A stretch of DNA of 64,000 nucleotides from Eledone cirrhosa (lineage: Eukaryota), in NCBI GenBank assembly GCA_964016885.1, contig OZ024740.1, positions 78,678,001-78,742,000 of the forward strand, written 5' to 3'. The stretch's first letter is position 1. Each line of letters begins with the position of its first letter. Below are positions 621-56,888 of the stretch, piece by piece. The position numbers were made by a program, and so were the translations under genes. The notes beneath the pieces were generated by a model. That model worked only from the letters and a program-made list of their open reading frames with translations, ran no database searches and was not told where the DNA came from.

Positions 621-740
621 CTTGCAAAATTCATATATGTACAGTCTACATGATCCCTGATAGTAACAGCACATTGACCCTTTAATTATCTTGTCAAGTC
701 AAAATTAAGTGGGGCCCCTCCTTTTATTAGTCTTTGTTTA

Positions 741-1480
741 TATCATCATCATCGTTTAACATACATTTTCCATGCTAACATGGGTTAAATGAGTTCTGCT
801 GACATGAGAAAAGTCAGATCAGATGACTGCGTCTTGCTTAAATAGAACTGTTTCTGACTTGGTTCCTACAGCTGGATGCCCTTTTTAATACCAACCACAT
901 TTACAGTGTGGACTGGGCGCTTTTTATCGTGGCACCAAAACAACCAACTGACAGGTTGGACAGTACTTTTTGTCACGTCACCAACATGACCACATTACAG
1001 AGTGGACTGGGTGCTTTTTGTCATGTCACCAGCATGACTGTCTTACAGGATGGACTGGGTGTTCTTTTGTCATGTTACCAGCATGAGCAGCTTATATGGT
1101 AGACTAAGGGCTTTTGTTGTGTCACCAGCATGACCATCTTACATGCTTGTGTGCATGGGTTGGACAAGAGAGGTATAGAAAGTGGTGGTAGGGCGGTTAT
1201 GATGTGTGTAAGGGGATTGGAGAAGTAGATCTGTGGTGGGATACCTAGCTGTTGAAGGGTGGAGTGTTAAGACATGGGATGTATATGAGTGGGGGAGGGA
1301 GAGAGGAGATGATTTGGTGTAAATTATTGTTCTCTAGATGTTTGCTTCATCCTGTGCATATAGGAAGGTGGGTCTTCTCAGTACTACATAATGCCAGAGA
1401 TCTTGATCCTGTAATATTGCCTTCGAGAGGTTTAAATGTGCAAGGCCAGCTTTTATTACTTCATCCCAAGCTTTCCTAGG
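741..1480 (-). mobile_element. Old RTE 3' fragment with long 3' UTR carrying tandem ~41-bp units
   Basis: (GAT)n tail at 741-753, the AAGGGCATCCAGCTGTAG motif, about 6 units like CAGTGTGGACTGGGTGCTTTTT..CACCAGCATGACC at 904-1140, and ORF-end homology (GGGTCTTCTCAGTAC..) near 1370. Confidence 0.7.
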
Positions 1481-1584
1481 TCTTTCTCAGTTTATTTACG
1501 CTTCACCGTTAATGTATATTATTATTACACATCCGTTGGAGCATGCAAGCTTCATTTATATTTAGTCTTTTATATATATATATA

Positions 1585-3930: not shown

Positions 3931-5087
3931 ATTTAACTTAGATTTTCTAATATATGATGTATTGTGCATAAATGTTTGTTTAATCAATTATGTCATCAAC
4001 AAATGTACATTATACAAGTTAGATAAATCATCTTAGTTAGGTTCTGATTTTTGTTTGTTGTTTGTTGTAAGTTGCAATTTGCTAGGAGTTCTCTTTGTGG
4101 GCAGAATGTTAAGAGTACTTGTGTTCCAATGAACAGCCAACTAGCTGTGAAATATATAAAGGCATCTCTTGTGTTTTTCTATGTATGGAGAGAATAATAT
4201 GTTTTCACAAAGCTAGCAATTTAAAAACTGTAGGTATATCTACAATAGATATATTTTTGATCTCAGATTGAGTTTCAGAGTGTAGACATATTTTAAAAGA
4301 AATATTACACTGCAAATGATTGCTGCCTTCAGTAGAATCTATTCTGTTGAAAGCATTGATTAGATCTCTGGCCTCAGATATGTAAAAAGGGTCATAGGTA
4401 CTGCCTTTTCCCCTTGACTAAATAGTAGGAACAATATATGAAAAAAATATAACTAGTATCTAAGTAAGACGGCATTTAAGTATTAATGTTAAAGGTAATC
4501 TTATGCTGCACTTAGTTTCAATTATATTGAAGCTGTGTGAAGAAATTAAGACCGGTTACTGATAGATGAACACTGCACTCATTTCTTCACATGTTAATGC
4601 TAGTGCCATGATAAAGTACACTCTGTAAAATGGTTGGTGTAGGAAGGGCATCCAACCATTGAAATCATGCCAAAATATGGAATGCCAGCATGGAAAACGG
4701 ACATAAAATGATTATGATGATGATGAACATCAGCTCTAATCACCTCTGATAATGCCAAATCAGGTAATATCTACCCCGCTCCATCTAAAAATTTAGTTTT
4801 GTCTATTATTTATTTTCAGCTTTATGGAAGTGGTATGGCTTATTCAGGCTGTGGGCTTGAGATTTTCTTTTTAGAAAGCCCCATTAAAACTTAATATGAT
4901 GAAAGGACTGCAGGAACATATTCCAATTATAGATAAATCTATGTGGATGGAAAGGCTATCAATGTACCTGTGGCTTTACACCTAAGAGAAAACAACATTT
5001 TAGAAAGAGTTTGTCTGTGATTGTAAAGATAAATCCTGATTATAAAGATAACTCTGATTAAAAATAGAGTAAATAGAATATCATTTT

Positions 5088-5700
5088 ATCATCATTATTT
5101 TACATTTACATTCCATGCTGGCATCGGTTGGATGGGTTGTCATGGTCTAAGATGAGATGGATCAGAGAGACCTCATCTTGTTCATATGTTCTATATTTGG
5201 CATGATTTCCATGGCTGGATGCCCTTTCTAATGCCAACCACCTCACCGAATGTACTGGATACATTTTACCAGCGTGTAGTGAATGCATTTCCACATGGTA
5301 CCCACACTAGAGAGGTTTTCACATGCTTGGCTAGATTGGAGAGTCCTCTATATTCTATATACCATTCACTATATAAAGTGATTGGTAATCACATGGATGC
5401 AATATACAGATGCTTTTTACAAATATTATATAAGAACTGTAATAAACATTTTCTATGAAGATTCTCTTCCTTGCAAAGAATAGCCAATGAGAAATTACTT
5501 TACACATCAAAACTCTTTTCACATTATTTCCATTACCTACCCCAAAGCTATTAATATACTTTCTATTGCTCACTACAGATCTCTCCCTCAGAGTGAAAGA
5601 CAGATTGTATAATGCCTGTGTGTGAATGGTAATGCTACATGGTAGTGAAACTTGGGCGTTGTGTACGAAGGACTTTAGAAGGTTCAATAGACAAGTTGCA
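5088..5700. mobile_element. Degenerate RTE fragments (3' UTR/tail on minus; ORF piece on plus at 5540-5700)
   Basis: GGCTGGATGCCCTTTCTAATGCCAACCAC motif; the plus piece encodes [17 protein letters not shown]. Confidence 0.65.
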
Positions 5701-6910
5701 TGCATTTTTTGGAGGGGCGGGGAGTACAACTTATGCACAAGTATATTGGGTGTATTAAAAATATATTAACTGGATTGCCATGGATGGAATGTAAGCTTTT
5801 GTATTATTTATTTATATAATAGGTTATGGAAATACAAGTAAAATTTTAAGAAGTAAATATGAACTATGCAACTCCATTACAAATACTATTAACATTGTGT
5901 TAGGAATAACTTTATACAGAATTACCACAATCTCATTCAAAAAATTGGTCACCAACTAACCGAGTGCTTTATTTCATAGGCAATGCCAGATATGCTTCTG
6001 GTATCTAGTGTTTTATTTATGTAGTAATAAGAAAGCCTTTTCTTTCAAATACTTAAATAACTAAGAATAAAAGGTAGAGGCATTGAGTGCAGGCAAGTAA
6101 ATGACAAATACTACAAATGGGTTTGACATCAAAGTTAAATAAATAAAAATGAAGTTAGATAAAAGAACTGTATACTGTTGTAGAATTTGAAATGGCTAAG
6201 GTGAGGAGGAGAGTAATTAGGGTATGTTTAATGTGAACATATGCCTGTCAGTATTTGTGTAAATATGCAAGAGTAAGTTTGAAGATAGCAATTAGAAAGA
6301 TTCTGTATTCTATTGAACCAATATAAGCAGCCAAACGGCTTCTTTATCCACACACATGTTATCATTAATTAAATTTTATCTTGCTAGCAGTATGTAATAC
6401 TAAAATCATTAAAGAGCAGATGAGGGAGTCTCTACATGGTCACTTGACCTGCTAAAAATACCAGCCAACTATTTTTCAACATTAAATCCCACTATAATTT
6501 TTTTTACTGAGGTAGAAGAGTAGTGCTTATGACCCTATTCAATATATTTGAGACTAGTAAGAGGGACAAATGAAGGTACCTTCAAACTGGAAAATATTTG
6601 CATTCAGAAGGTGAGGAGTTTAACAAGGATATTTAGTATACCCTGCTTGTTTAACTATTATGTTAGATATTGTAACCTCAAATGAACCTGCAGTACTGTT
6701 GGTAGGAGTTGAAACTCTGTAAGTCCATTTCAACAGCTGATGAACACTGAGTTGTTTGTCTTGTTCATGTTACTAATTTTTGTATTGCCTATTTACCATC
6801 TTGTCCTTTATTCATCCATTCCTGTACATCTATCTGGTTTTCACTGTATCTTGTTATTTTTGTAATTATATCTCTCTATATATCTTTATTATATATATAT
6901 GTATATATAT

Positions 6911-7244
6911 CATCATCATCATTTTACGTCCGCTTTTCCCTGCTTGCAAGGGTGGGACGGGAACTGATTCTGGCTTTATTTCTACAGCTGGATGCCCTTC
7001 TTAACACCAACCTAATTTACAGTGAGGTCTGGGTGATTTTTTGCCGTGGCACCTCCACGATCACTTTGCAGTGGAATGATATGGACTCCAGTCCTTATCA
7101 TCTCATTTCTACAGCTGAGTAAACTGGAGCAATGTGAAATAAAGTGTCTTGCTCAAGGACACAATGCATCACCCAGTCGGAGAATTGAACTCACAATCTT
7201 TCGATTGCAAGGCCAATGCTCTAACCACTAAGCCATGTGCCTCC
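6911..7244 (-). mobile_element. SINE1: tRNA head + CORE + RTE-UTR body + RTE-A tail, full length
   Basis: GGAGGCACATGGCTTAGTGG (A box), GAGTTCAATTC (B box), CCTTGAGCAAGACACTT..CCAGTTTACTCAGCTGTAGAAATGAGATGATA resembling the MIR CORE, and a (GAT)n tail. Flanked by (TA)n. Confidence 0.9.
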
Positions 7245-9560: not shown

Positions 9561-12500
9561 TGCTGACCAATGCCTTGTGATTAAAATTTGATAGATGGAA
9601 ACTGCAGAATCTTGTTGTGTGTCCATGTCTAAGTGTATGTTTGTAGCGTTTCGATAAAATAAGTACCAGAATAAAAAATAAACACATGGATTGATAACAT
9701 GGTCAGTCTAATGACTGAAACCAGTAAAAGAATAAGAGAATTATTGAAAGTTAAGATCTGAAGAATTTTTTTACTTTTTTTCCTTTTGCAAGTATGAAAT
9801 CAGCCTAAACATTGAAAAGTAATATTATCTTGCTTAAGTTCATTTGTATGTGTCTTTATGGCTTGCTTACAGGTAAGTGTTGATAGATAACTACTGTATG
9901 ATATTAAGTGATTTAAATTTAGCACAATGTAGTAGATTCTCAGAGGTAAAATACTAGGAAAGGCAATGAAAGATTAATGAAATTGTAGATAACCCAAGAG
10001 GCATATTTCATATAGATATTAATATATTTGGACATTGGGTAGAGTAGAATCATGAAATGACAGATAAAGTTTGATAAAAGGAAGAGCAATAAAAATTATA
10101 TTGTATGTAGAAAAATAAAGATATAGGGTGATAACAATCTTTAAAGTGCGTATGAGGGTGAATATTAAGATTGTGGAGTATATAACATAATGTACACACA
10201 AACATACACATACATTGTAATGATGGTGGAGCAGATATGAGTGGATGTGTCTGTGTACAAGAGCTTAAATGGAGTGATCCTTAGTTATATTCTTCTGGGT
10301 GGGTGATAGTGCTAGGGTGGGTAGAGTAGGTATTTTGTTGGCAGAGAAATCAATAAAGTACTTGTAGAGGCAGACTGTGCTAGAGAAGACCCACTCAAAC
10401 CATGCAAGCATAACAAATTGGATGTAAAATGTTAGTAATGATGATTGATGATGTGAATATGTGACAGGTTAATTATAGTTAAACTAGTCATAGGTACAAC
10501 AGCAACAGTGAGCTCTGCATATGCACTACAATGAGGATTGATATATGAGCAAAAGAACCTCTTTTACAAGATCCTATTGTATTCTACCTTCATAATGAAG
10601 GACTAACCTAATTATTGTGACTGTATTTATAATGAAATACATTATTTCATTTAATTAATGAAGAATTTTAAGGGATTTACTAAAATTATAATTTCATTAC
10701 TAAGATAGTAATTTAACATATGGTTCTTATATATAATTATGTAAATAAAACATGTTTATAAACATTTGATAAAAAGAGATTGATAAAATAAATATCAGAC
10801 TTGAAAAATAAGAGTTGGGACTGATATGTTTCACTAAAATCCCTTTAAAGTTATGCCCCAACATGGCCATAGTCTAATGACTGAAACCAGTAAAAGAATA
10901 AATCTAAATAAAGAAACTTTAAATATTGTTGAGAATTTCTACAATGTATAGAACATATTTATTTATACATAACAATGACACCATCTTTCCAAATCATTGT
11001 TTTTTTATCTATTATTTGACGAACCAATTTTTAACTATGACAGTGTTAATATCAACAATCAGAACATTTTGAATAAATTATCTCAGTTATGTAGCAAATC
11101 TTTTTTTTTATTGTAATTTTTTCGTTTTTTGATATTTGGCAAATGTCATATTTCATGTAAAAACCAGCTCTGTCTAGCTTTACCCTTCTCCATAAATAAA
11201 TGTGCTAATTGGTTCTGCTTTCTTAATGCTAAGATGGTGCTGCTTTCACTAAAACCACTCAAAAACGTTAGATAGTAGCTACCACTCGTGTTTGCCTCCA
11301 CTTTCATCCCTTGACCACTGAAAAAAAAAACAAAAAAAACTGAACAGCACTTGGCTGCAGTTTAACTGGCACATTAAGTTTTTCTTCTATGGAAGAAAAT
11401 TCATGTTAAAACTGAATAACATTCATAGTTATCTATTTAAAAAGAAAAAAAAAAATTTATTGATAGCATATATTTATCAAATCTTCATCATTTTCTCTCC
11501 ACTTTCCAAGAGGGTATGATTTTGATGGGTCATTATAGTTTGACCCAGTTCATATTCAAAGTTACTGCCCTAGATATATCAAGGGACTATATCTTGCTCA
11601 TATATTCCATTTTTTGGCATGGTTCAAATAGTTCTTAATGCTTTACCAACTACTTTAGAGTGTACTGGGTGCATTTTATCTCATGGATAATAGGAAATAA
11701 AAATGATCATAAGAGTAATTGGCAGATATGCATCTGTCATTTTTGTGCTATTCTGATTATTAAAAATTATTTAATAACCTCACTAGTGTAGGCCATCCTA
11801 GACTATTGAAGTTGAACCAGTGTGTGAATATTTCGGTTGAGGATTCTATATTGAAATCTTTCAGATTAGATCATGGATTAATACCACCCCCAATATCTTT
11901 ATTCTGTTAAGCCATATTTCTATAAGATTGCAGAAAGAGTATAACAGATGTTTTTATCATGATCAGCATCATTTTACATCCACTTTCCATGCTGGCATGA
12001 GTTGAATGAGTCACCATAGTCTGAGACTTGATGGGTTAGAGAACCACATCTCATATGTTCCTTAATTTGGAATGGTTTCTAAAGCTAGATGCCCTTTCTA
12101 ATGTCAACCATTTTACAGAGTGTACTGGGAAGACTACATTTTGGTGACATTATTTTTAACTCACACTGACATGAGTTGATTTCTTGTTTGAATCCAATAC
12201 CACTTAATACATAATTCTTCATAGTTGACATGTTCATATACCAGCAGCTACATTGTCTTAAGTCTTCCACAAAAACTAGACAGAAGACAGACAATATTTT
12301 ATATATCATCACTGTTTTACATTGACTTTTCTATGCTGACATGGGTTGGAATGGGATTTTTTGAGGCAGTGTTTTATAACCAGATGCTTTTTCTAATACC
12401 AATGCTTTTAGTCACTTATGACATGCAAGGACATGGTGTACCTTTTCTAAAGCAAATACACACTGTCTATATTTATGTTTATATTCATCCATATTAGTTA

Positions 12501-18150: not shown

Positions 18151-19572
18151 TTATCAAAAAATTTTCTAAACATTGAGGATGATATATATATAATAAAAAC
18201 CTTATTCTGAGATTTAAGTTTATGTTACTACTTTAGTTTTAAACTAATTATATATTTTCGTAGCTGATTCAATTCACATCTACATTCAGATAGTATTTCA
18301 TGATACCTTTCTATATTCAAGTAACCTAAACTGGACTGAATTATCAATCATTGCTTTACTTACAGTTTTTGTTTAACTTTGTTTTATAGTACTATGTATT
18401 ACTTTTTTTTTATATATAGGATAAATATATTCAGAAAGATTAATGGTCTAATTTGTTAATTGTCTGATTAACTGGAATTAATTAGAAAGAAAGATTTATC
18501 ATTTTGCTAGATTTTGAATAGTAGATATTTTAATTTCTCTCTCTTTCTCTCTCATGCACACACATACCACAACAAACCAAGTGTTTTAAGGCTATTTTCC
18601 TTGCTAAAGCAGAAGTTAGCCATGTAGGCCCCATGATATGTGATCACTTTTTAGGCAACTTTTTACAGCTGGATCTTCTTCCTGGAACCAACTCTTTTAG
18701 TCACCTCTTCCAACATGCATGGATATTGTATACCTATTCTAAACCAGATACTCAGTCATATATATATATATATATATATAGGGGTAAGAAACTCTCAAGA
18801 GAGCTGGACAGCAGGCCTTCAGAGAAGACCCCCCCCTACCAATCGAGTGTTTTAGCCCTTAACTTCTCATATATAGTCTGAAAAATGTGACAAAAATATT
18901 GATGGTAAAATCAAAGGTCAATATTTTGTCATTTTTCACCAACTTCAAATTCTACTTTAAAAAAGTGCTAAAATATCTGGAGTGATTATTTTACAATGAA
19001 ACACACATAATTGTGCGCGTGCACACACATATATACGCGCATCAACTGCTTTTCTCTGACTAAATTATACTTTTCTATCTAGCACATGTAAGTAAAACTG
19101 AAATCTTATTTCTGACTTGTATTTTATTGCTCTCTCTCCTTCTCTCTCTTACTTGCTGTCTCTGCATCCCTCTTCTACTCTATGAATCCTTCCCTATACA
19201 ATGTTCTCTTATTTGATCTCTTGCATTCAATTACTCCCAGCATACAAATGACCAGAAGTAAACAAAAATTCATAAAACTTCATTATAAACTGGATGAAAT
19301 GGTAAAAAATCATTACATAAAGTAATTTAAAAACCTATACTCTAAATGACATTTAAAATATCAAAATATTAAAATTTTATAACTATATTCTCCACTCATA
19401 AAAATCTCAAAACCATGCCATCCACACATAATTTTCTTATTATCTGCCTTAGTTTATAAACAAGATTTAGATTTTTGCTTATTTATTAATGAAATAGGGG
19501 ATTGGATTAAATTCGAGTATATATGGTGTGTGTGTGTGTGTGTACACACACACACATGTACATATATATATA

Positions 19573-19786
19573 TTTTTTTGTCAATCGGCTTTCATCAAAT
19601 CGGATCGAGAAAACGTTTCCATAGGTCTTTCCAATTGCTAATACTATCTATCTGTCACAACTCCATGTAGGAGCAACGTGAAATAAAGTGTCTTGCCCAA
19701 CGACATAACGCATCGCCCGGTCCAGGAATCGAAATCACAACCTCATGATTGCGAATCCAATTCTCTAACCACTCAGCCACGCGCCT
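19573..19786 (-). mobile_element. SINE2: tRNA head + 5' half of CORE + unrelated 3' module
   Basis: Homologous over its whole length to 60197-60416. Confidence 0.85.
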
Positions 19787-19794
19787 TTATTTTT

Positions 19795-20131
19795 TCATTT
19801 TTCATTTCATTTTGCGTCCACTTTTCCCTGCTTGCAAGGGTGGGACGGGAACTGATTCTGGCTTGATTTCTACAGCTGGATGCCCTTCCTAACACCAACC
19901 TCATTTACAGTGAGTGCTGGGTGCTTTTTTGCCATGGCACCTCCACGGCCACTTTGTAATGGAATAATAGGGACTGGGGTCCCTATTATCTCATTTCTAC
20001 AGCCGAGTAAACTGGAGCAATGTGAAATAAAGTGTCTTGCTCAAGGAAACAACACATCACCCGGTCTGAGAATTGAACTCACAACTTTCGATTGCAAGGC
20101 CAATGCTCTAACCACTAAGCCATGTGCCTCC
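19795..20131 (-). mobile_element. SINE1, full-length copy
   Basis: Near-identical by eye to 6911-7244 and 32747-33096. Confidence 0.9.
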
Positions 20132-20275: not shown

Positions 20276-21199
20276 ATATGTATATATATATATATAAGGA
20301 ACAGTCTTTCATTTAGATATGTGTTGTTAAAGACATGATTAGCTTCATGTTTCAACTTCATTGTTAGAATTGACTGTTATATTTATGTCAAGTCTTCTTT
20401 ATGATGTATGTGGTTGGTGATTATACTGGCTATTGTTCTTGGTAACACTTTGCAATGTAAGTATCTTTCCCATGATTAAATGATTATATTTTTTATTAAT
20501 TTTGTATAATATAGATGTATTGTTCTTTAATATTCCCCACCTAGCTTTGTATTGTGGCATGTTGTGTAGTATGTTGCAATTGTTCCTTGTTATAAATGCA
20601 TGGTGAACCTTTGAGAGGGTATTATACTTGTATGACCATATCTAATATTATTTTACATTCATTTCCCATACTGGCATGGGTTAAACATTATATATTAATT
20701 TCCTTTTACTTTTTCATTGTGAAAGAAGGGCAGTAGCTATAAACCTTTCGTAGGGCCTCATAGTAAGTGGTAGGAAGCTAAGAAAATGTATATAGACCTG
20801 ACCAAAATGCTTACAACAACATAGACTCTAAGTGCATCCAAGATGCCATATGGTGGTCTTAAACTGAGTGACAGATTATGTCTACCATCCAAGAAATCCA
20901 CAATGGGATTTGAACTCAGAATATAAAGAGCTGGAAAAAGATACTGCAACATCTAGTCTGATGCTCTAACAATTCCCTCAGTACACCATCTTGGATTACT
21001 ACTTTATTTTATTGACCCTAAAAATATGAAAGGCAAAGTTTCCCACAGTAGGATTTGAACACAGATTGCAGAGTTGGAGCAGATATTACAAATCATTTTG
21101 TGATGTGTTCTAATGACTCAGCCAAATTGTCACCAATAATTATATGTTATATGGTGTAGATAAGTCTCTTCTCTCTCGTTGAGCATATGACTACCTCTC

Positions 21200-21500
21200 C
21201 AGTGTTGGTACCATGATAAAATACACTTAATACACTCTGTAATGTAGTAATACTGGTACCTTGGCAAAAAATGCAGCCAGTACACTCTGAAGTAGTAGTG
21301 CTGGTGCTATAATAAAATGCATTCAGTATACACTAAAGCGGTTTGTGTTATAAAGGGTATCCAGCTACAGAAACCATGCCAAAATATGGAACATATGAAG
21401 AGGATGTGGTCTGTTAGACCTGTCTAGACTTTAATGATGACAACTTGTACAATTTATCCCAGCATAGAAAACAGCCGTTAAATGATAATGATGATAATAT
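21200..21500 (+). mobile_element. Degenerate RTE 3' UTR with ~4 tandem 41-bp units (similar at 4597-4725, 50811-51030, 56270-56580)
   Basis: Repeated TGGT.CCA..ATAAAA.GCACCCAGTACACTCTGTAA, then AAGGG.ATCCAGC and an (ATG)n-like tail. Confidence 0.65.
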
Positions 21501-29312: not shown

Positions 29313-29674
29313 ATGGCCTAGTGGACGGAGGCACATGGCCTAGTGGTTAGAGCATTGGCCTTGCAATCGAAAGGTTGTGAGTTCAATTCTCAGACCGGGT
29401 GATGTGTTGTTTCCTTGAGCAAGACACTTTATTTCACATTGCTCCAGTTTACTCAGCTGTAGAAATGAGATGATAGGGACTGGGGTCCATATCATTCCAC
29501 TGCAAAGTGGTCGTGTAGGTGCCACGGCAAAAAAAGCACCCAGCACTCACTGTAAATGAGGTTGGTGTTAGGAAGGGCATCCAGCTGTAGAAATCAAGCC
29601 AGCATTAGTTCCCGTCCCACCCTTGCAAGCAGGGAAAAAGCGGACGTAAAATGAAATGATGATGATGATGATGA
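29313..29674 (+). mobile_element. SINE1 copy with an extra A-box fragment in front
   Basis: ATGGCCTAGTGG-AC-GGAGGCACATGGCCTAGTGG... ending CGGACGTAAAATGAAATGATGATG. Confidence 0.9.
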
Positions 29675-32746: not shown

Positions 32747-33096
32747 ATCATCATCATCATCATCATCATTTCATTTTACGTCCGTTTTTCCCTGCTTGCA
32801 AGGGTGGGACGGGAACTGATTCTGGCTTGATTTCTACAGCTGGATGCCCTTCCTAACACCAACCTCATTTACAGTGAGTGCTGGGTGCTTTTTTGCCGTG
32901 GCACCTCCACGACCACTTTGCAGTGGAATGATAGAGACCCCAGTCCCTATCATCTCATTTCTACAGCTGAGTAAACTGGAGCAATGTGAAATAAAGTCTC
33001 TTGCTCAAGGAAACAACACATCACCCGGTCTGAGAATTGAACTCACAACCTTTCGATTGCAAGGCCAATGCTCTAACCACTAAGCCATGTGCCTCC
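32747..33096 (-). mobile_element. SINE1, full-length copy
   Basis: A/B boxes, CORE, RTE-derived body and tail. Confidence 0.92.
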
Positions 33097-34126
<1,030 letters not shown>

Positions 34127-34133
34127 CATCATT

Positions 34134-37100
34134 TTACGTCCGCTTTTCCCTGCTTGCAAGGGTGGGACGGGTCTTATTCAGCACAGCACCTCTCCACTCG
34201 TCACGGTCCCTCGTCATCTCCACCGTGAGCTTCAATGATCTGAGGTCTGTTCTCACCACCTCCGCCCATGTTTTTCGTGGTCTACCTCTACCACGTCTTC
34301 CTTCAACTGGCATTTCCTGGCACTTCTTCACCCATCGGTCATCCTCCATGCGCATCACATGTCCATACCACCTCAGTCTCCTCTCCCGTACACTACATTC
34401 TATCCCTCTCAGACACAGTTTCTCTCTCAACACATTTATGCTGGGTCGTTCACGCACATTTACACTGCACATCCAACGGAGCATGCTTGCCTCATTTCTC
34501 TCCAGCCGTCGCATATCTTCTGCGGTAGCTGCCCATGTCTCACTACCATGCAGCATCGCGCTCCTCACACAGGCATCATACAACCGGCCTTTCGTACGCA
34601 GGGAGAAACCCTTCTTCGTCAACAGAGGAAGCAGCTCCCTAAACTTCTTCCAACCCGTCCTTATTCTAGATACTATGGCCTCGGAACACCCTCCTCCCAT
34701 GCTAATCTGATCTCCTAGGTACCGGAAGCTATCCACCACTTCTATAGCGCCCTCTCGCATTTGAAAAATGTGTCTATCAGTGCGACTTCTACTGTCTAAC
34801 TTCCCTGTACATCTACTGCATACATATTTCTCCCTACCTGTTAGTTTGCCTGCTATCCCGCTACATCTCTTGTGTACCCAGGACCTACATTGTGTGCATT
34901 TTATAGAATTTATGCCAGTTCCTTTTCTGCATATCGAACATGGCCATTTCCCTGACGGAATCAGGGTTTTGTCCTCTTTTCTACTCATCAACACTTTTGT
35001 CTTAGCTAGATTTACTCTCAGTCCTCTTGCTTCCAACTGCTGTTTCCATAGCCGGAATTTATTCTCTAGCTCCTCTACTGATTCTGCCATAAGAGCCAGA
35101 TCGTCAGCATAGAGAAGTTCCCATGGACAGCCAGTCTTAAACTCCTCTGTTATGGCTTGGAGGACTATAATGAACAAGAGCGGGCTGAGGACCGAACCCT
35201 GATGTACTCCTACTTGTATCTGGAATTCCTCACTAAACTCCATTCCTACCCTGACTTTACTGAGAGTACCTCTGTACAAAGTTTGCACTGTCCTTACAAG
35301 CCATTCCTCAACACCCAGCTTCCTTAGGGACCACCAGATGACAGATCGGGGTACCCTATCAAAGGCCTTCTCTAGGTCAACAAAGGCTAAGTATAGTGGT
35401 TTATTCTTCTCTAAGAACCTCTCTTGCATTTGTCTCACCAAGAAGAGGGCATCTGTTGTACTCTTCCCAGGCACAAAACCAAACTGCATCTCATCTAGTT
35501 TGACCCTTTCTCTAATTAGTTGTGCTAAAATCCTTTCTGCCACTTTCATAACCTGATCTATCAGTTTTATACCCCTATAATTGCTCCTCTCCAAAGCATC
35601 CCCTTTACCTTTGTAGCAATTTATGAGAATACTGCTGCACCAGTCTTTGGTTATGACACCACCATATATAGCCTGATTGATTATGCGTGCAACCAGTTTA
35701 GTGCCTACGTCCCCTGATGCCTTCAGCATCTCAGCAACTATTCCCGATGGTCCGGCCGCCTTACCATTTTTCATTTCCCTAATCGCCTCTTGGACCCTAT
35801 ATTCGTCAATCTCAATAGCTGGTCCCTCTGTCGGATCTACCAAGGGTAATTTCTCTCTCTCCCATTCGTTCTCCACATTCATCAGTCTCTCATAATGACA
35901 TTTCCAGGCCTCCTTTTTCTGGTCATTCGTGACACTAAGTACACCGGCATCATCCCGGACACATTTATCACCAACAACATCCTGATTTGCATTGACACAC
36001 TGCCTTGCAATGTGGAACACCGCACGCCTCTGATCTTCCCGTCGCAGAACATTGGCAAACCTCCTACTCTCTGCCTCCCTGCGTGCTAAGTACACCTGAC
36101 GTCTAGCTTCTCTCTTAGTGGCTGTATATTCTTCCCTACTCCCACCCTTATTCCAAGCCTTCCATGCTAGTCTTTTGTCTCTAATAGCCTTATCTACACT
36201 GCTGTTCCACCACCAGGTCACTCTCTGTCTGGTTGGAGCTCTGCTCCAGCCACAGGTTTCATCAGTAGCCTTCAGCAAGTTGTCACGTAAGAACTTCCAG
36301 TTATTATCTATGTCATACGTCTCTAAATCGTCTTCTTTTTCGTCATATACATCTTGAAGGGCTTTCCTAAATTTGAATTTTAATGAAAGGTCTTTTAGCT
36401 TCCAGACCTTTCTTCTCCACACCTTCCTATATGTCTCATTCCATCTCTTGCTTACTGAGATATCACTAACAACTAACCTATGCTGTGGGGTACATTCTTC
36501 CCCAGGGTATGCCTTGGTATTAGACACTATCTGCCTGTCCCGCTGCCTAACTAGCAGGAAGTCAATCTGGCTTATGTGCTCACCAGATTTGTAGGTTATT
36601 AGGTGATTGGCAGGTTTCTGGAAGTTTGTGTTGCAAATAGTCAATGTACTTGCATCACAAAATTCAAGAAGTCTCACTCCTTCTTCATTTCTTGAACCGT
36701 AACCGTGCCCACCATGTACCCCAGTGTAACCATCCTGGAGCTGTCCAACATGACCATTGAAGTCTCCTGCTAGCATAACGATGTCTCCGTCCTCTGTCAT
36801 TGTGGTTGTTTGCAAAAGTTGCTCATAAAAGCAGTCTTTCTCATCTTTGCCTAGGCCTGCTTGGGGAGCATAGACCGAGATGATTGTCAGTAGTCTCCTA
36901 CCTACAACTAATCTAAGCTTAATTATTCGATTACTAACTCGAACTACCTCTATTGTCTTATTGATCCATTTCTCAGCCAGGAAAATGCCTACTCCCCCTA
37001 ACCCATCATCCTTACCTACCCAGAATAGCTTATAGCTAAGACGCTTGCCTACGACTAGTCTCGCAGAGGCACCCCTCCATCTCACCTCTTGCACGCAGCA

Positions 37101-37202
37101 CACATCCACCTGCCTTCTCTCCAGCATCTCCGCTATTTCAGCAGACCTACCTCTGAGAGTGCCAACATTAAGTGTTGCAACTCTGAGATGCGACGTCTTC
37201 AT
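34134..37202 (-). CDS. RTE-A LINE intact ORF (1022 aa): AP endonuclease, reverse transcriptase, internal PHD finger
   Basis: Starts [16 protein letters not shown] motifs VQE, YAPQ, GDFNGH, QIDF, PQH; RT motifs [27 protein letters not shown]; C-terminal GRPRKTW. The stop is followed directly by AATGATGAT and (TA)n. Confidence 0.95.
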
Positions 37203-38908
<1,706 letters not shown>

Positions 38909-44788: not shown

Positions 44789-45387
44789 CATCATCATCAT
44801 CATATGTCCATTCTTCCACGCTAGCATGGGTTAGATGGGTTGTTCTGTTGTGGATAGTGCCAAGTCGGGTGACCTTGTCTTGCTCATATGGGAACTGATT
44901 TTGGCTTGATTTCTACAGCTGGATGCCCTACCTCATTTACAGTGAGTGCTGGGTGCTCTTTTTCCGTGGTGCCTACACGACCACGTTACAGTGTGGGCTG
45001 GGTGCTTTTTTGTTGTGACACCTCCACGACCACTTTGCAGTGGGAGGGGGTGGGTCATATTGTCTATATACTTCAGCTTCGGCATGTTCCTGTGGGAAGT
45101 TAGGTCTTCTGTATTACTGCGTGACACCAGAGGTCACGGTCCTGTATCATTGCCTTTGAAAGGTGCAATTGGGTAAGGTCGGCTTTTATCACCTCATCCC
45201 AGGTTTTCTTGGGTCTTCTCATTCCAAGGCTTCCATCGACTTCTAGTGTCCTGCACCTTTTTATACAGCTGTCATCCTTCATACGCATCACATGTCCATA
45301 CCAACGCAACCTCCTTTCCTGCACACAGCATTTGATTCTTCTTATGCTCAGTCTCTCTCTGAATTTGTTTATGCTTTGCTGTTCGCA
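44789..45387 (-). mobile_element. RTE-C LINE 3' fragment (ORF end + 3' UTR + (GAT)n), flanked by (TA)n
   Basis: [30 protein letters not shown]; the UTR at 44890-45043 matches the SINE1 body. Confidence 0.88.
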
Positions 45388-45458: not shown

Positions 45459-46118
45459 ATCATCATCATCATCATCATCATTGTTTAACGTCCATCTTCC
45501 ACGCTTGCATGGGTTTGGATGGGAATTTTCCCACTTGAGGCAAGATTGGTTGTCCTGCTCGTATAGGACTGTCTGGCGGGTTTTCTACGGCTGGATGCCC
45601 TTCCTAACACCAACCACGTTTACAGTATGGACTGGGAGGTTTTTACTGTGCTACCTACACGACCACATTACAGCGTGAACTGTGTGTTATTTTGTCGTGA
45701 CACCTACACGTCTGGCGGGTTTTCTACGGCTGGGTGCCCTTCCTAACACCAACCACGTTTACAGTGTGGACTGGGAGGTTTTTACCGTGTTACCTACACG
45801 GCCACATTACAGCGTGGACTGTGTGTTTTTTTGTCGTGACACCTACACGACCTCATTTGTTTCGGACTGGATGTTGTGGTACCAACATAACTTAACATTT
45901 AAGGGGGTGGTGTGGATGGGGTGGGGGTAGTGGGACAGGGGTGTATTTTTGTTAGAGGTGCCTGCTGACTGTAGGTTTCGCTTTGTACTTAGGCAAGGTG
46001 GGTCTTCTGTATTACTATGTAGCGCCAAAGATCTCGGTCCAGTGACATTGTCTTGGAGAGGTGTAAGTGTGTGAGGTCGGAATTTATCAAGTCGTCCCAG
46101 GTTTTTCTGGGTCTGCCT
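45459..46118 (-). mobile_element. RTE-B 3' fragment with complete 3' UTR and a 139-bp internal tandem duplication
   Basis: 45760-46118 aligns with 30380-30743; duplicated units at 45571-45709 and 45710-45848. Confidence 0.88.
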
Positions 46119-49470: not shown

Positions 49471-52298
49471 TCCTATATTTCTTGTTCTGACTTATTCTGT
49501 TGTCACTGTACATATTTTATTAATCTCCTTTCTGTTGAACTGCTAAACAAAGACACACAAACAAACATAGTAGACATGTATATGAGATGGGATTTTTCAG
49601 TTTCTGTCTATCAAATTTCACTCTAGGCATTAATCAATATGTAACTGTAGTAGAAGACACTGTCCCTATTTGCTGTGCAGCAGGACTAAACCCAGAACCA
49701 CATACATGGTTGTGAAACAAACTCTGTAACCACTTGGCCATGCCTTCACCTATACAATATTTTCTCCAGAAGTATTATCTGCTTTACATGTTAGCATAGT
49801 TTGGACAGGATAGAAGAAAAAAAAAATTAAGCGATGAAAGAAAGGCAAAGTGGTGACAAAGTGACAGACTGTACCCCCTAGTTTGAGCAGTATGTTTCAG
49901 CTGTGCTCCTTCCAAAAAATAGTGTAGGCATTGCCACAGAAAATGACCAGCAACACCCACTACAACAGCCACACTACCTCATGGAGCTTTGTCCTCAAGT
50001 AGGTTGCATCCTTCTCAATTTTGTGGAGGAAAACAGTTCAGGAAACGAGGACACCTGAGGTTTTGATGGTGAATGGCATGAAAAGGAAGCGGTTGGTTAA
50101 TCCCCCGTTTTTGGTTATCTTCCTCTCCTCTGCATTGGATAGGTTGTCATTGTCTGAATGATTATCATTACTTTTTCTACTTCTGTTTATTACAACTAGT
50201 ATTTCAAAATTTAATTTTACTAACCTCATCTAGTTTTCTTTCTCTACTAATTAACAATATGGATGTAGACATCCATATATAATGCACATTATCCCTCTTT
50301 TTTATAAAAAATAAAATTGTAAAAATAATGATTCTTCATTGTTAACACATTGAAATTGGAATGGTAGGCCAGTAGATTCAAAGATAATTGACTATCCTAC
50401 CAGCATTCCATTCTATCACACACTTTTGTTTATAACTGTTATTTACATCACTTCCTGCATAAATCAGTGCTCATTTTACATTGTTTCTTTGGTCTGAGTT
50501 CTTCAGTGAGACATTACTATGATTTTTGTCAAGTTTGTACATTAATGAATTTGTTTTTATTTTCTTTAGTTTAACAAATATCTTTTTCAGAGGTTTTTGT
50601 GCAGATGCCCAGGGCTGGGGGACTGCACATGGGGCAGTGGGTCAGAGTTCAGAGGGTTAAACATGAGATACATATTTCAATGTGGACTTAAGTTTTTGGA
50701 TAATGATTTTCATGCCTGGAGGTGATAATTTTGGCAATTGAAATTGAATGGAGACAATATAGGGTTTGAGAAGACTATTTAGCCTGATTTAACATGTGAC
50801 ATACTCTCTAGTGCTGGTGCCACAATAAAATGCACCCAGTACACCCTGTAAAGTAGTAGTGCTAATGTCACCAAAAATGCAGCCAGTACATCCTGTAAGG
50901 GGATTGACATTAGGAACTGTATCCAGCCATAGAAACCATACAAAATTTGGAATGTAACAAGCAAAAATTGGTCGTCCTGATCCAACTTGAGAATCTGACC
51001 AACATGGGTTAGGTAAAATGATGATAATGAAATCCATATAGAATACAACAACTGAAATAATTAATAATTCTCAAATTAATCAATACTTTCAGTAAGCTTT
51101 ATGTTATACATCTAGAGTTACTAATTTGCCTGATTTTTTTTCTGGCAATATCTGCACTTGTTACCTATCTTTGAATAAGTAGATATTTAAGCAAACAAAG
51201 CTATCTCAAATTTTTCTTTGTTTAACATCTTTTAGTTTTGTTTGTATTTAATTATGAGACCATTATTCCTCAAAATATCTTTTTAAGATCTGAAGTGCTT
51301 TTGATGTCAAGCAAAGTATATCTATTTTTTCTTTTTTAGAAGCTCTTGAAAAATAATTGTTATATGAATAAAAGAATTGGTCAAGAATAGACCATAAGTA
51401 AAATTAGTACTTGAGAGGGCTCTTATTTCATACACAGGATACCATAACAACTAAATATATACACTCTGGAGTGACCAAAGGCCAAAATTATTTCCCTTTC
51501 AATTTATTTTTTATCTTATTTTCTATCATATGCTTCAGTCTTAAGCATACTTACTCTTCTCTCAGTTTACAGTTGACACTAGTAATCTGATTTTAGTCTT
51601 CTTATAAAAAGCTTCTGAATAATGACTTTGTATCTCCACTTCTAGGAGGTCTATTGAAAATCTGCTTTGAGTTTTTTAGCTGATGTCAATGAGAAACATG
51701 ACTAAAATCATCAATGTGTGTAGCTAGCAATTGTAGTTACCTCAGGAAGTTGATAAGTGAACAAAAAATAAATAAAATATAATAAAATGAATAAAAATTA
51801 CATTGTATAGTTTTATAACAAAAAAGATAAACTTGGTTTTCTATACATGAAGTCATTTTTAAAATGTCTGTTACAATCCTAAGGACTTATAAAGGCCAGT
51901 TAGATGGTTTCCTTGAAAATACTGAATTAGCTTAATTTTGTTTTAAGGATACTTGTAAAGTACTATTATATTTTATTGTTTCCATATTTTGAATTAATTG
52001 CATGCTTCCAGATTATAAACAATGTAATAGTAATCTAGATAGCTTACAGTCTAGTACCACAATAAATTTTACATTTTCTATAAAATATTAGGCTTTTATT
52101 TGGAAGCATTAAGATTAAAGTTCCATTTTTATATATATATTTTTTTCTATTTATATTTTGATATGAAAATGAATGTTTATCATTGGTTTGTGAATTTATT
52201 CTCTTTAATCTTTATATAAGTTTCTTCTTCTGTGCCATTCTTTGGGGTAATACATCTGCTATTTTGTCTGCAGGAGTTGCAGTGATACAATAAAATTC

Positions 52299-56050: not shown

Positions 56051-56888
56051 ATACTTATTTTCATACACACTTAAATCAGTATTTTACCCATTCCTATTAA
56101 TGAGTCTCCTTAATCTCTTCCTTTCTGTGACAGCATTGAAGGGTATTTACAGAAATTTGTATAAGATATACCAATTTAGATTACATTAGTGTCATTGGCA
56201 GCTATCATGTGGGTATGGTAATTTTTAAATAACATTGGTTAATTTTATTTCAGTTCTTCTGTTTTGCTATCATCATCATTGTTAATGTCATTTTTACGTC
56301 TACTGTCTCTGTTTGTATGGGTTGGTCAGGTTGTTATGGTCCAACATTAGTCATGTCAGAGAATTGTGTCTTGTTCATATGTTCCATATTTTACAATGGT
56401 TTCTATGGTTGGATACTTTTCCTAATGCTAGCCACTCTACAGTGTGTATTGGGTGCATGTTATTGTGGTACCAGCACCACTACTTTAAAAAGTGTATTAA
56501 GTGCATTTTATTGTGGTAGCAGCACTACCACTTTACAAATTATACTGATTGCATTTTATCATGTCACCAGCACTATGCCTTTACATAAATTATATATTAT
56601 TTAATGGTACCATACTTTTTAACATTATGTATTTAAAATTTATTTGCTTCTTTGCTTTATGGTGTAAATGGCCTATTTCTTAGAACTCAACAGTAAACAG
56701 GAATTTAACAAAAAGAATTAAATTTCAGTTTCAAAATGACCCTTACACTTTTTTACATACAAAATTCCCTTTAAACTTTCTGCTATATATTAAAGAGTCT
56801 CTTTTATATAGATTATTTTGATCATCAAACCATAATCACAACTTTACTGTATCTAGTGGTCAAATGAGGTGTTAATATTTGAATTCTG

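What the first reader, a model, noticed from the sequence alone, without database searches (positions are those of the whole stretch)
32747..33096. Four-module SINE built from two different RTE LINE families, both putative donors present in the window
Seen: SINE1 has five similar copies (6911, 19795, 29327, 32747, 57746), each made of a tRNA head, a MIR-like CORE, a ~115-bp body and a ~45-bp tail. The body (32811-32926) matches the RTE-C 3' UTR (44890-45043: GGGAACTGATT.TGGCTTGATTTCTACAGCTGGATGCCCT..ACCTCATTTACAGTGAGTGCTGGGTGCT..CACCTCCACGACCACTTTGCAGTGG). The tail is the last coding nucleotides of RTE-A (CCCGTCCCACCCTTGCAAGCAGGGAAAAGCGGACGTAAAATGA, 34128-34171). The switch falls on a CCC shared by both donors. 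Known: SINEs borrow 3' tails from partner LINEs, and CORE SINEs occur in octopus. Inference: an RTE-C-dependent SINE switched partner to RTE-A by template switching and kept the old UTR as its body.
Basis: partly seen in the sequence, partly recalled or inferred. Interest (0 to 1): 0.75.

Follow-up and report, generated by a model that had tools for sequence, protein, structure and literature searches.

The report
SINE that changed tails twice
A short jumping gene in this genome exists in three versions with the same front half and different tails, and it likely swapped tails twice to hitch onto successive helper elements, keeping most of the second tail as its middle part; this is an unusually complete example of a known process.

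Summary
I found two further states with the same head: SINE-C (whole RTE-C 3' UTR; 13 of 30 junction loci) and SINE-0 (no body, unrelated tail, partner unknown). Six head positions grade 0, C, A. Preference for (TA)n target sites appears with the RTE tails. The shared junction is CCCGT, not CCC. The body's deeper origin is likely an RTE 5'-UTR motif: RTE-A carries it before its start codon (73% identical), and one RTE clade carries it at the 3' end. Template switching is inferred, not shown. Tail exchange and SINEs built from two RTE families are published (Kojima 2018, 2020); I found no report of a demoted 3' UTR as the body. This scan noted the same RNA module before on other DNA of this genome.

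The parts
33020..33096 (-). tRNA-derived head of SINE-A (A-box-like 33077-33087, B-box-like 33034-33044); lower boundary approximate
   Evidence: Rfam tRNA 33030-33087, 28.1 bits against gathering 29, E 7.7e-4; ARAGORN calls the copy at 29316-29401 a tRNA; box positions
32955..33019 (-). CORE-like domain; boundaries approximate
   Evidence: 33000-33010 matches 9 of 11 letters of the mollusc CORE/Ceph motif printed in PMC5786205; shared with other SINE families of this genome
32927..32954 (-). Hairpin, last piece inherited from body-less SINE-0; first junction at its 3' foot
   Evidence: Fold z -3.7; present in SINE-0, SINE-C, SINE-A; junction table
32814..32926 (-). Body: one-unit form of the RTE-C 3' UTR module, itself homologous to an RTE 5'-UTR motif
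   Evidence: 97-98% to RTE-C loci L085 and L090; 68 of 93 columns to the RTE-A 5' UTR, 0 of 500 shuffles
32809..32813 (-). CCCGT shared by both donors; 5' strand of the outer helix of the predicted terminal stem-loop
32771..32813 (-). Tail: last 43 nt of RTE-A, predicted two-helix stem-loop
   Evidence: 42 of 43 to 34129-34171; fold
32747..32770 (-). (ATG)n terminal repeat, flanked by (TA)n
6910..7244 (-). SINE-A copy
19802..20131 (-). SINE-A copy
29327..29674 (+). SINE-A copy
57748..58063 (+). SINE-A copy, about 10 nt short at the 5' end
34126..37203 (-). RTE-A: open 1022-aa endonuclease + reverse transcriptase frame running into the terminal stem-loop; 5' UTR missing in this copy; tail donor family
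58105..59635 (+). Second, 5'-truncated and more diverged RTE-A copy
   Evidence: 94.3% over 879 nt; tblastn
45090..45386 (-). RTE-C coding remnant
   Evidence: tblastn to RTE-A residues 919-1001; family search
44890..45043 (-). RTE-C 3' UTR module, two-unit form; body donor family
44790..44889 (-). RTE-C terminal ~100 nt with its own stem-loop and (ATG)n; kept by SINE-C, replaced in SINE-A
45460..46114 (-). RTE-D 3' end: sister family with a diverged copy of the same module
730..1500 (-). Older RTE 3' end with several module units

Best explanation
This SINE is the most abundant of three forms that share one tRNA-CORE-hairpin front, and it likely arose by two successive tail replacements. First, body-less SINE-0 likely took the whole ~215-nt 3' UTR of RTE-C, joined at the foot of the hairpin, and became SINE-C, moved by RTE-C. 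Second, the last ~100 nt were likely replaced by the last 43 nt of the younger RTE-A at a shared CCCGT, most likely when RTE-A reverse transcriptase, primed on its own RNA, jumped onto SINE-C RNA. That left the proximal RTE-C UTR as an internal body and gave the SINE the predicted recognition stem-loop of the LINE with intact young copies. Shown: the three forms, the junctions, the donors' identity, head gradient, flank shift. Inferred: order of events, RNA-level switching, dependence on RTE-A protein. The body is homologous to a motif in the RTE-A 5' UTR (shown); that one RTE clade gained it at the 3' end from an old bipartite element is inferred with lower confidence.
For: RTE-C UTR is familial: 28 of 30. 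Exact junction counts: body+C tail 2,975, body+A tail 19,746, SINE-0 tail 1,209, reversed-pattern controls 0. Of the first 30 body+C loci, 13 have SINE head/CORE upstream, 12 RTE-C coding sequence, 5 unassigned. 29 of 30 SINE-0 tail loci have head or CORE and no body. Over all held loci: head+A 87, head+C 17, ORF+C 44, ORF+D 18, head+D 0, ORF+full A tail 0. All 99 body+A-tail elements have the same breakpoint. Six head columns grade 0, C, A with C intermediate or mixed (33, 13, 58 copies); a sister SINE has the SINE-0 state at three of them, which are CpG sites (read by eye). TATATA upstream: SINE-0 5 of 33 (background 12.8%), SINE-C 7 of 11, SINE-A 38 of 60, p 0.004 and 9e-6; downstream RTE-A 16 of 30, RTE-C 27 of 40 (background 18.3%). 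RTE-A median divergence 0.0%, 29 of the 30 best copies with an open frame; RTE-C median 5.7%, p 1e-5. Module-bearing RTE rows form one side of a 95/100 branch, 9 against 4 rows, 4 ungrouped. The deletion intermediate has 1 exact match in the genome.
Against: Age by divergence separates the SINE forms only weakly: head non-CpG means 2.4% (A), 3.0% (C), 2.8% (0); A<C p 0.011, A<0 p 0.051, C<0 p 0.75; on the position-ordered body samples A<C p 0.12. Exact-pattern sampling favours young copies, and enriched one head allele in all groups. The first junction shows no microhomology. At least 3 of 67 SINE-A copies have the two-unit body (checked by eye), so later recombination or a second switch occurred. 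One RTE-C copy carries the first 10 nt of the A junction (L066). No partner LINE for SINE-0 was found. No transposition or transcription data.
Confidence: 0.85

Rival explanations
1. Same history, but the second swap happened at DNA level: a 43-nt 5'-truncated RTE-A insertion into, or recombination with, a genomic SINE-C copy at CCCGT.
For: A 5-nt microhomology fits either route (established knowledge); elements here sit close together in shared (TA)n sites; PMC7245038 names DNA recombination and template switching as equal options.
Against: The join falls exactly at the base of the predicted stem-loop, which suggests an RNA-level pause or selection; the body end is not a (TA)n site, the usual RTE target here. 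Neither point is decisive.
Confidence: 0.3
2. Classical bipartite origin: head plus an internally deleted RTE-A (its own 5' UTR and 3' end), with no role for RTE-C.
For: 28 of 30 RTE-A loci carry the motif in the 200 nt before the start codon; this architecture is common (PMC5786205).
Against: Body is 97-98% identical to RTE-C copies but 73% to the RTE-A 5' UTR; SINE-C exists.
Confidence: 0.03
3. Reverse transfer: RTE-C took its 3' UTR from this SINE lineage.
For: The CORE 3' half and the body unit share a short similar stretch (5 of 500 shuffles as good); coded run X13 shows CORE-to-motif joints with short sides, so an older SINE with the motif may exist elsewhere.
Against: RTE-D and older families carry the module at 17-22 differences per ~120 nt from RTE-C and group with RTE-C by coding sequence; no SINE head precedes a D-type module in 0 of 39 D-tailed elements; SINE-0 lacks the body.
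Confidence: 0.06
4. SINE-C copies are late, sporadic chimeras of SINE-A with RTE-C ends, or SINE-A is a deletion product of SINE-C.
For: The C and A termini are about 80% alike and both begin with CCCGT; divergences overlap.
Against: SINE-C heads keep SINE-0-like states; the deletion form has 1 match against 19,746; the A tail has RTE-A's letters in 86 of 92 stem-loops scored.
Confidence: 0.06

Closest known systems
Hagfish SINE2-1/1B_EBu and SINE1-1_EBu (Kojima 2020, PMC7245038; passages and the Discussion read)
   Same: SINE with parts from two RTE families, formed by replacing the 3' part; a precursor-like family (SINE2-10_EBu) and both donors are in the same genome.
   Different: There the retained middle is a 5'-UTR piece of a bipartite element and the new part is 5'+3'; here the middle is a demoted 3' UTR of an autonomous LINE and the new part is a 43-nt coding terminus.
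WALLSI2, Mar-1, SINE2-2_ACar and other tRNA-CORE-RTE5'-RTE3' SINEs (Kojima 2018, PMC5786205; main text parts 1-4 of 5 read, supplement searched by terms)
   Same: Same final layout: tRNA head, CORE, RTE 5'-UTR-type segment, ~45-nt RTE 3' end.
   Different: They are explained by internal deletion of one RTE. Here the same layout was reached through another family's 3' UTR. The paper found only LINE 5' regions in SINE bodies.
Ceph-SINEs of squid and cuttlefish (as analysed in PMC5786205; Akasaki 2010 not seen)
   Same: tRNA head, CORE-derived half, RTE-derived body; tail replacement proposed for IdioSINE2.
   Different: The printed SepiaSINE and OegopSINE bodies do not resemble this body by eye, and the body's core motif was not found in that supplement by text search (line breaks could hide it).
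Mammalian CORE-SINE series MIR/Ther-1 (L2), Ther-2 (L3), Mar-1 (RTE) (table passage in PMC3747384)
   Same: One CORE lineage using different partner LINEs through different tails.
   Different: Ancient, without young intermediates; the old tail is not described as retained.
Octopus OK, OR1, OR2 SINEs (Ohshima and Okada 1994; Gilbert and Labuda 1999; recalled, neither paper seen; not held, no hits)
   Same: tRNA-derived, recalled as CORE-containing octopus SINEs.
   Different: Not compared; one of the three forms or a sister family could already bear one of these names.

Membership tests
tRNA-derived SINE (SINE2) | tRNA-related head with A and B boxes | tested here: met
   Rfam tRNA E 7.7e-4, just under the gathering score; ARAGORN hit on one copy
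tRNA-derived SINE (SINE2) | Short, non-coding, many dispersed copies of uniform structure | tested here: met
   19,746 exact junction matches; 10 copies in 52 random 10-kb stretches, about 58,000 genome-wide, 95% range 28,000-106,000
tRNA-derived SINE (SINE2) | Transcribed by RNA polymerase III | not testable with these tools
   No assay available
CORE-SINE | CORE domain after the head, shared with SINEs of other tails | tested here: inconclusive
   9 of 11 match to the motif printed in PMC5786205; segment shared by several SINE families here; no alignment to a CORE consensus was possible
RTE-partnered SINE | 3' end shared with an RTE LINE, same terminal repeat and target preference | tested here: met
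   42 of 43 nt, (ATG)n end; (TA)n flanks as for RTE-A
RTE-partnered SINE | Mobilised in trans by that LINE's protein | not testable with these tools
   Inferred from tail and flanks
Bipartite RTE-derived SINE (Bov-tA, Mar-1, WALLSI2 type) | Body homologous to an RTE 5' UTR | tested here: met
   68 of 93 columns to the RTE-A 5' UTR, 0 of 500 shuffles
Bipartite RTE-derived SINE (Bov-tA, Mar-1, WALLSI2 type) | Body and tail come from one internally deleted RTE | tested here: not met
   Body nearest to RTE-C 3' UTR, tail to RTE-A
Ceph-SINE | Ceph domain with its particular RTE 5'-UTR half | tested here: not met
   No resemblance by eye to the two printed sequences; motif search negative; no formal alignment run
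RTE-clade LINE (RTE-A) | Single frame with APE endonuclease and reverse transcriptase, tandem-repeat end | tested here: met
   1022 aa, RVT_1 E 8e-30, Exo_endo_phos E 1e-6
RTE-clade LINE (RTE-A) | Placement in the RTE clade on a reverse-transcriptase tree with named references | not tested

The most novel reading that the evidence does not exclude
The RTE leader motif is a portable cis-element that works at either end of the RNA. One RTE clade moved it from the 5' UTR to the 3' end by absorbing a bipartite non-autonomous element, and a SINE then rebuilt the textbook bipartite layout by a second route, as a demoted 3' tail. Some SINE bodies filed as 'RTE 5' UTR' would then be old tails, and the 0-C-A series gives natural constructs to test whether a body helps mobilisation.
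Probability: 0.35. Interest if true: 0.62.

Novelty: new variant of a known kind. Interest (0 to 1): 0.42.

Why it matters
The origin of SINE bodies is an open question, and Kojima's model (LINE-derived pieces become bodies after tail exchange) usually lacks intermediates. Here all three SINE states and both donor LINEs are young and abundant in one genome, the junctions are known to the base, and the partner change can be read in the insertion sites. It also shows that a body can look like a 5'-UTR piece yet come from a 3' UTR. It does not reveal a new kind of element or a host function.

Tried and rejected
Bipartite RTE-A origin, reverse transfer and deletion origin: rejected (see rivals). 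Search for SINE-0's partner: 30 tail loci, blastn of the tail over all held loci and the one head-less locus L286 (its reverse transcriptase frame lies downstream of the tail) gave none. Motif in the RTE-C 5' UTR: no same-strand hit at a consistent place in 30 loci, whose shared leader reaches about 960 nt in the longest; the true 5' end may lie further up. Pseudoknot in the body (lead from earlier notes): stem 1 pairs in 81-85 of 87 SINE-A copies, stem 2 has its fourth pair broken in SINE-A (4 of 86 paired) and RTE-C (2 of 44), little covariation; inconclusive. Folds of the body and of both termini were not better than shuffles (z -0.7 to -1.6). The body alignment mixes one- and two-unit forms, so its 5' columns and divergences were not used for dating. 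and the query were in an off frame; corrected. Sequencing runs: no RNA holder listed. Of 8 runs laid, X24 laid nothing; X6, X7, X9, X11, X12 are low-depth contigs; X5 and X13 show head/CORE and the motif far deeper than the hairpin junction. Contigs cannot show absence, so these were not used for the order of events. Literature: 8 searches found no description of this SINE or of an RTE with the leader motif in its 3' UTR; Repbase, Dfam, SINEBase entries and subscription papers could not be searched. PMC4758252, PMC9115989, PMC3531059, PMC3747384: passages only.

Full report
Setting. The window lies in a 3.0-Gb animal genome.

Observation. The five copies are real and alike. On the minus strand the 32747 copy reads: tRNA-like head (Rfam E 7.7e-4), CORE-like segment, a 12-bp hairpin, a 113-nt body, a 43-nt tail, (ATG)n. 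The tail matches the RTE-A end at 42 of 43, and in RTE-A these bases are the last codons of a 1022-aa endonuclease-reverse transcriptase frame. The family is large: 19,746 exact body-tail junctions, 19,601 exact hairpin-body junctions, and about 58,000 copies by extrapolation from 10 in 520 kb.

Is the RTE-C UTR a family feature? I fetched 30 loci with the RTE-C coding end alone (best 30 of 40 scored, window copy included). 28 of 30 carry the body within 330 nt downstream, the best at 97-98% to the SINE. The coding-end/body junction has 1,270 exact matches. The UTR comes with one or two 48-nt units; SINE-A mostly has the one-unit form.

The predicted precursor. The junction between body and RTE-C terminus has 2,975 exact matches. 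Of the first 30 by position, 13 have SINE head or CORE upstream, 12 have RTE-C coding sequence, and 5 were unassigned. So SINE-C exists. None of the first 30 body+A-tail loci has an RTE frame upstream.

A third state. A search on a head allele (4,271 matches) gave, among 30 loci, 9 A-tailed, 7 C-tailed, 13 with a different tail and 1 other (counted by eye, one row partly cut). This SINE-0 has the same head, CORE and hairpin, no body, and a ~75-nt tail ending in (CA)n or (CAA)n; 1,209 exact matches, 29 of 30 with head or CORE. Its partner LINE was not found.

Order. Six head columns change from SINE-0 through SINE-C to SINE-A. At three of them a sister SINE in the window has the SINE-0 letter, and the change is the direction of CpG decay (by eye). 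One column is biased, but the contrast also shows by eye in the position-ordered sets. Divergence supports SINE-A as youngest only weakly (p 0.011 on heads; p 0.12 on bodies) and does not separate 0 from C. The donors differ clearly: RTE-A median 0.0% (28 of 30 loci scored) against RTE-C 5.7% (12 of 30), and 29 of the 30 best RTE-A copies have an open frame, while the 8 long RTE-C copies fetched align in broken pieces.

Functional trace. SINE-0 flanks are near background for TATATA (5 of 33 upstream, background 12.8%) and 13 of 33 show complex target duplications. SINE-C (7 of 11) and SINE-A (38 of 60) sit in (TA)n like RTE-A, RTE-C and RTE-D. This fits a change of machinery at the first swap. 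It cannot tell RTE-C from RTE-A, since both prefer (TA)n.

Junctions. All 99 body+A-tail elements break at the same place. The shared letters are CCCGT, which is also the 5' strand of the outer helix predicted at both LINE ends; the inner helix differs between A and C while staying paired. A plain deletion between the two CCCGT of the C tail has 1 match, so the tail is RTE-A's. The first junction has no microhomology.

Direction and deeper origin. RTE-D and older families carry diverged modules after their frames. On a tree of 270-nt coding ends (17 rows kept from 87, up to 3 per cluster) the 9 module-bearing rows lie on one side of a 95/100 branch (midpoint root). No SINE head precedes a D-type module. 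So the SINE took the body from RTE-C. But full-length RTE-A has a homologue just before its start codon (28 of 30 loci; 68 of 93 columns, 0 of 500 shuffles), and RTE-C shows none in up to about 960 nt of leader. Old elements without a detected frame join extra RTE-A-leader-like sequence to the motif and a C-type terminus (e.g. window 50700-51000). I infer, with less confidence, that such a bipartite element was appended to the ancestor of the C/D/E clade.

Comparison with what is known. Kojima 2018 (PMC5786205) shows that RTE 5' regions become SINE bodies and that tails are exchanged. Kojima 2020 (PMC7245038) describes hagfish SINEs with parts of two RTE families and a precursor-like family. 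This case works like those. It is not a member of the bipartite type in the strict sense, because body and tail have different donors and the body came from a 3' UTR. My 8 literature searches found no description of it, but the repeat databases were out of reach, and supplements other than that of PMC5786205 were not read. Earlier scan notes had already seen the module at LINE tails, a LINE head and in a SINE; a look-up by sequence returned nothing. None of the 8 notes listed mentions SINE-0, SINE-C or the flank shift.

Verdict. Serial tail replacement 0.85; RNA-level template switching about 0.6 against 0.3 for a DNA-level event. Interest 0.42.

Noticed in passing
window 19570-19786 (-) and 60197-60420 (+): A sister SINE with a related head and CORE (about 80% alike) and a different 3' half ending near a T run; further sister families in L206, L198, L124, L194.
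   Followed up: partly
window 62387-63862 (-): 491-aa frame with reverse transcriptase and GIY-YIG domains, Penelope-like (label recalled).
   Followed up: no
window 50700-51000, 5070-5400, 21150-21500, 56250-56600, 11940-12250: Old elements with no detected frame that carry module units and a C-type terminus, some with extra RTE-A-leader-like sequence; candidate bipartite RTE elements.
   Followed up: partly
L066 about 1800-1970 (oriented): RTE-C coding end plus body followed by the first 10 nt of the A-type junction, then unrelated DNA; a possible LINE/SINE-A recombinant.
   Followed up: no
L075: An RTE-C copy whose coding end runs straight into (ATG)n and skips the 3' module.
   Followed up: no
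L082, L097: The 48-nt unit expanded into tandem arrays; earlier scan notes report satellites from it.
   Followed up: no
window 32955-32985 against 32860-32890; L138, L169; run X13: The CORE 3' half resembles the body unit; single copies have deletions between such stretches, and coded run X13 has contigs joining CORE directly to the motif, sides under 30 nt.
   Followed up: partly
L032 ORF residues 755-798: PHD-like zinc finger between the reverse transcriptase and the C-terminus of RTE-A, E 1.7e-5.
   Followed up: no
L286 3-1385 (-): A different non-LTR reverse transcriptase frame next to a (TAA)n run, Dong/R4-like by recall.
   Followed up: no
L101 about 6350-6700: RTE-A-like leader with three tandem ~85-nt units ending in the motif.
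   Followed up: no
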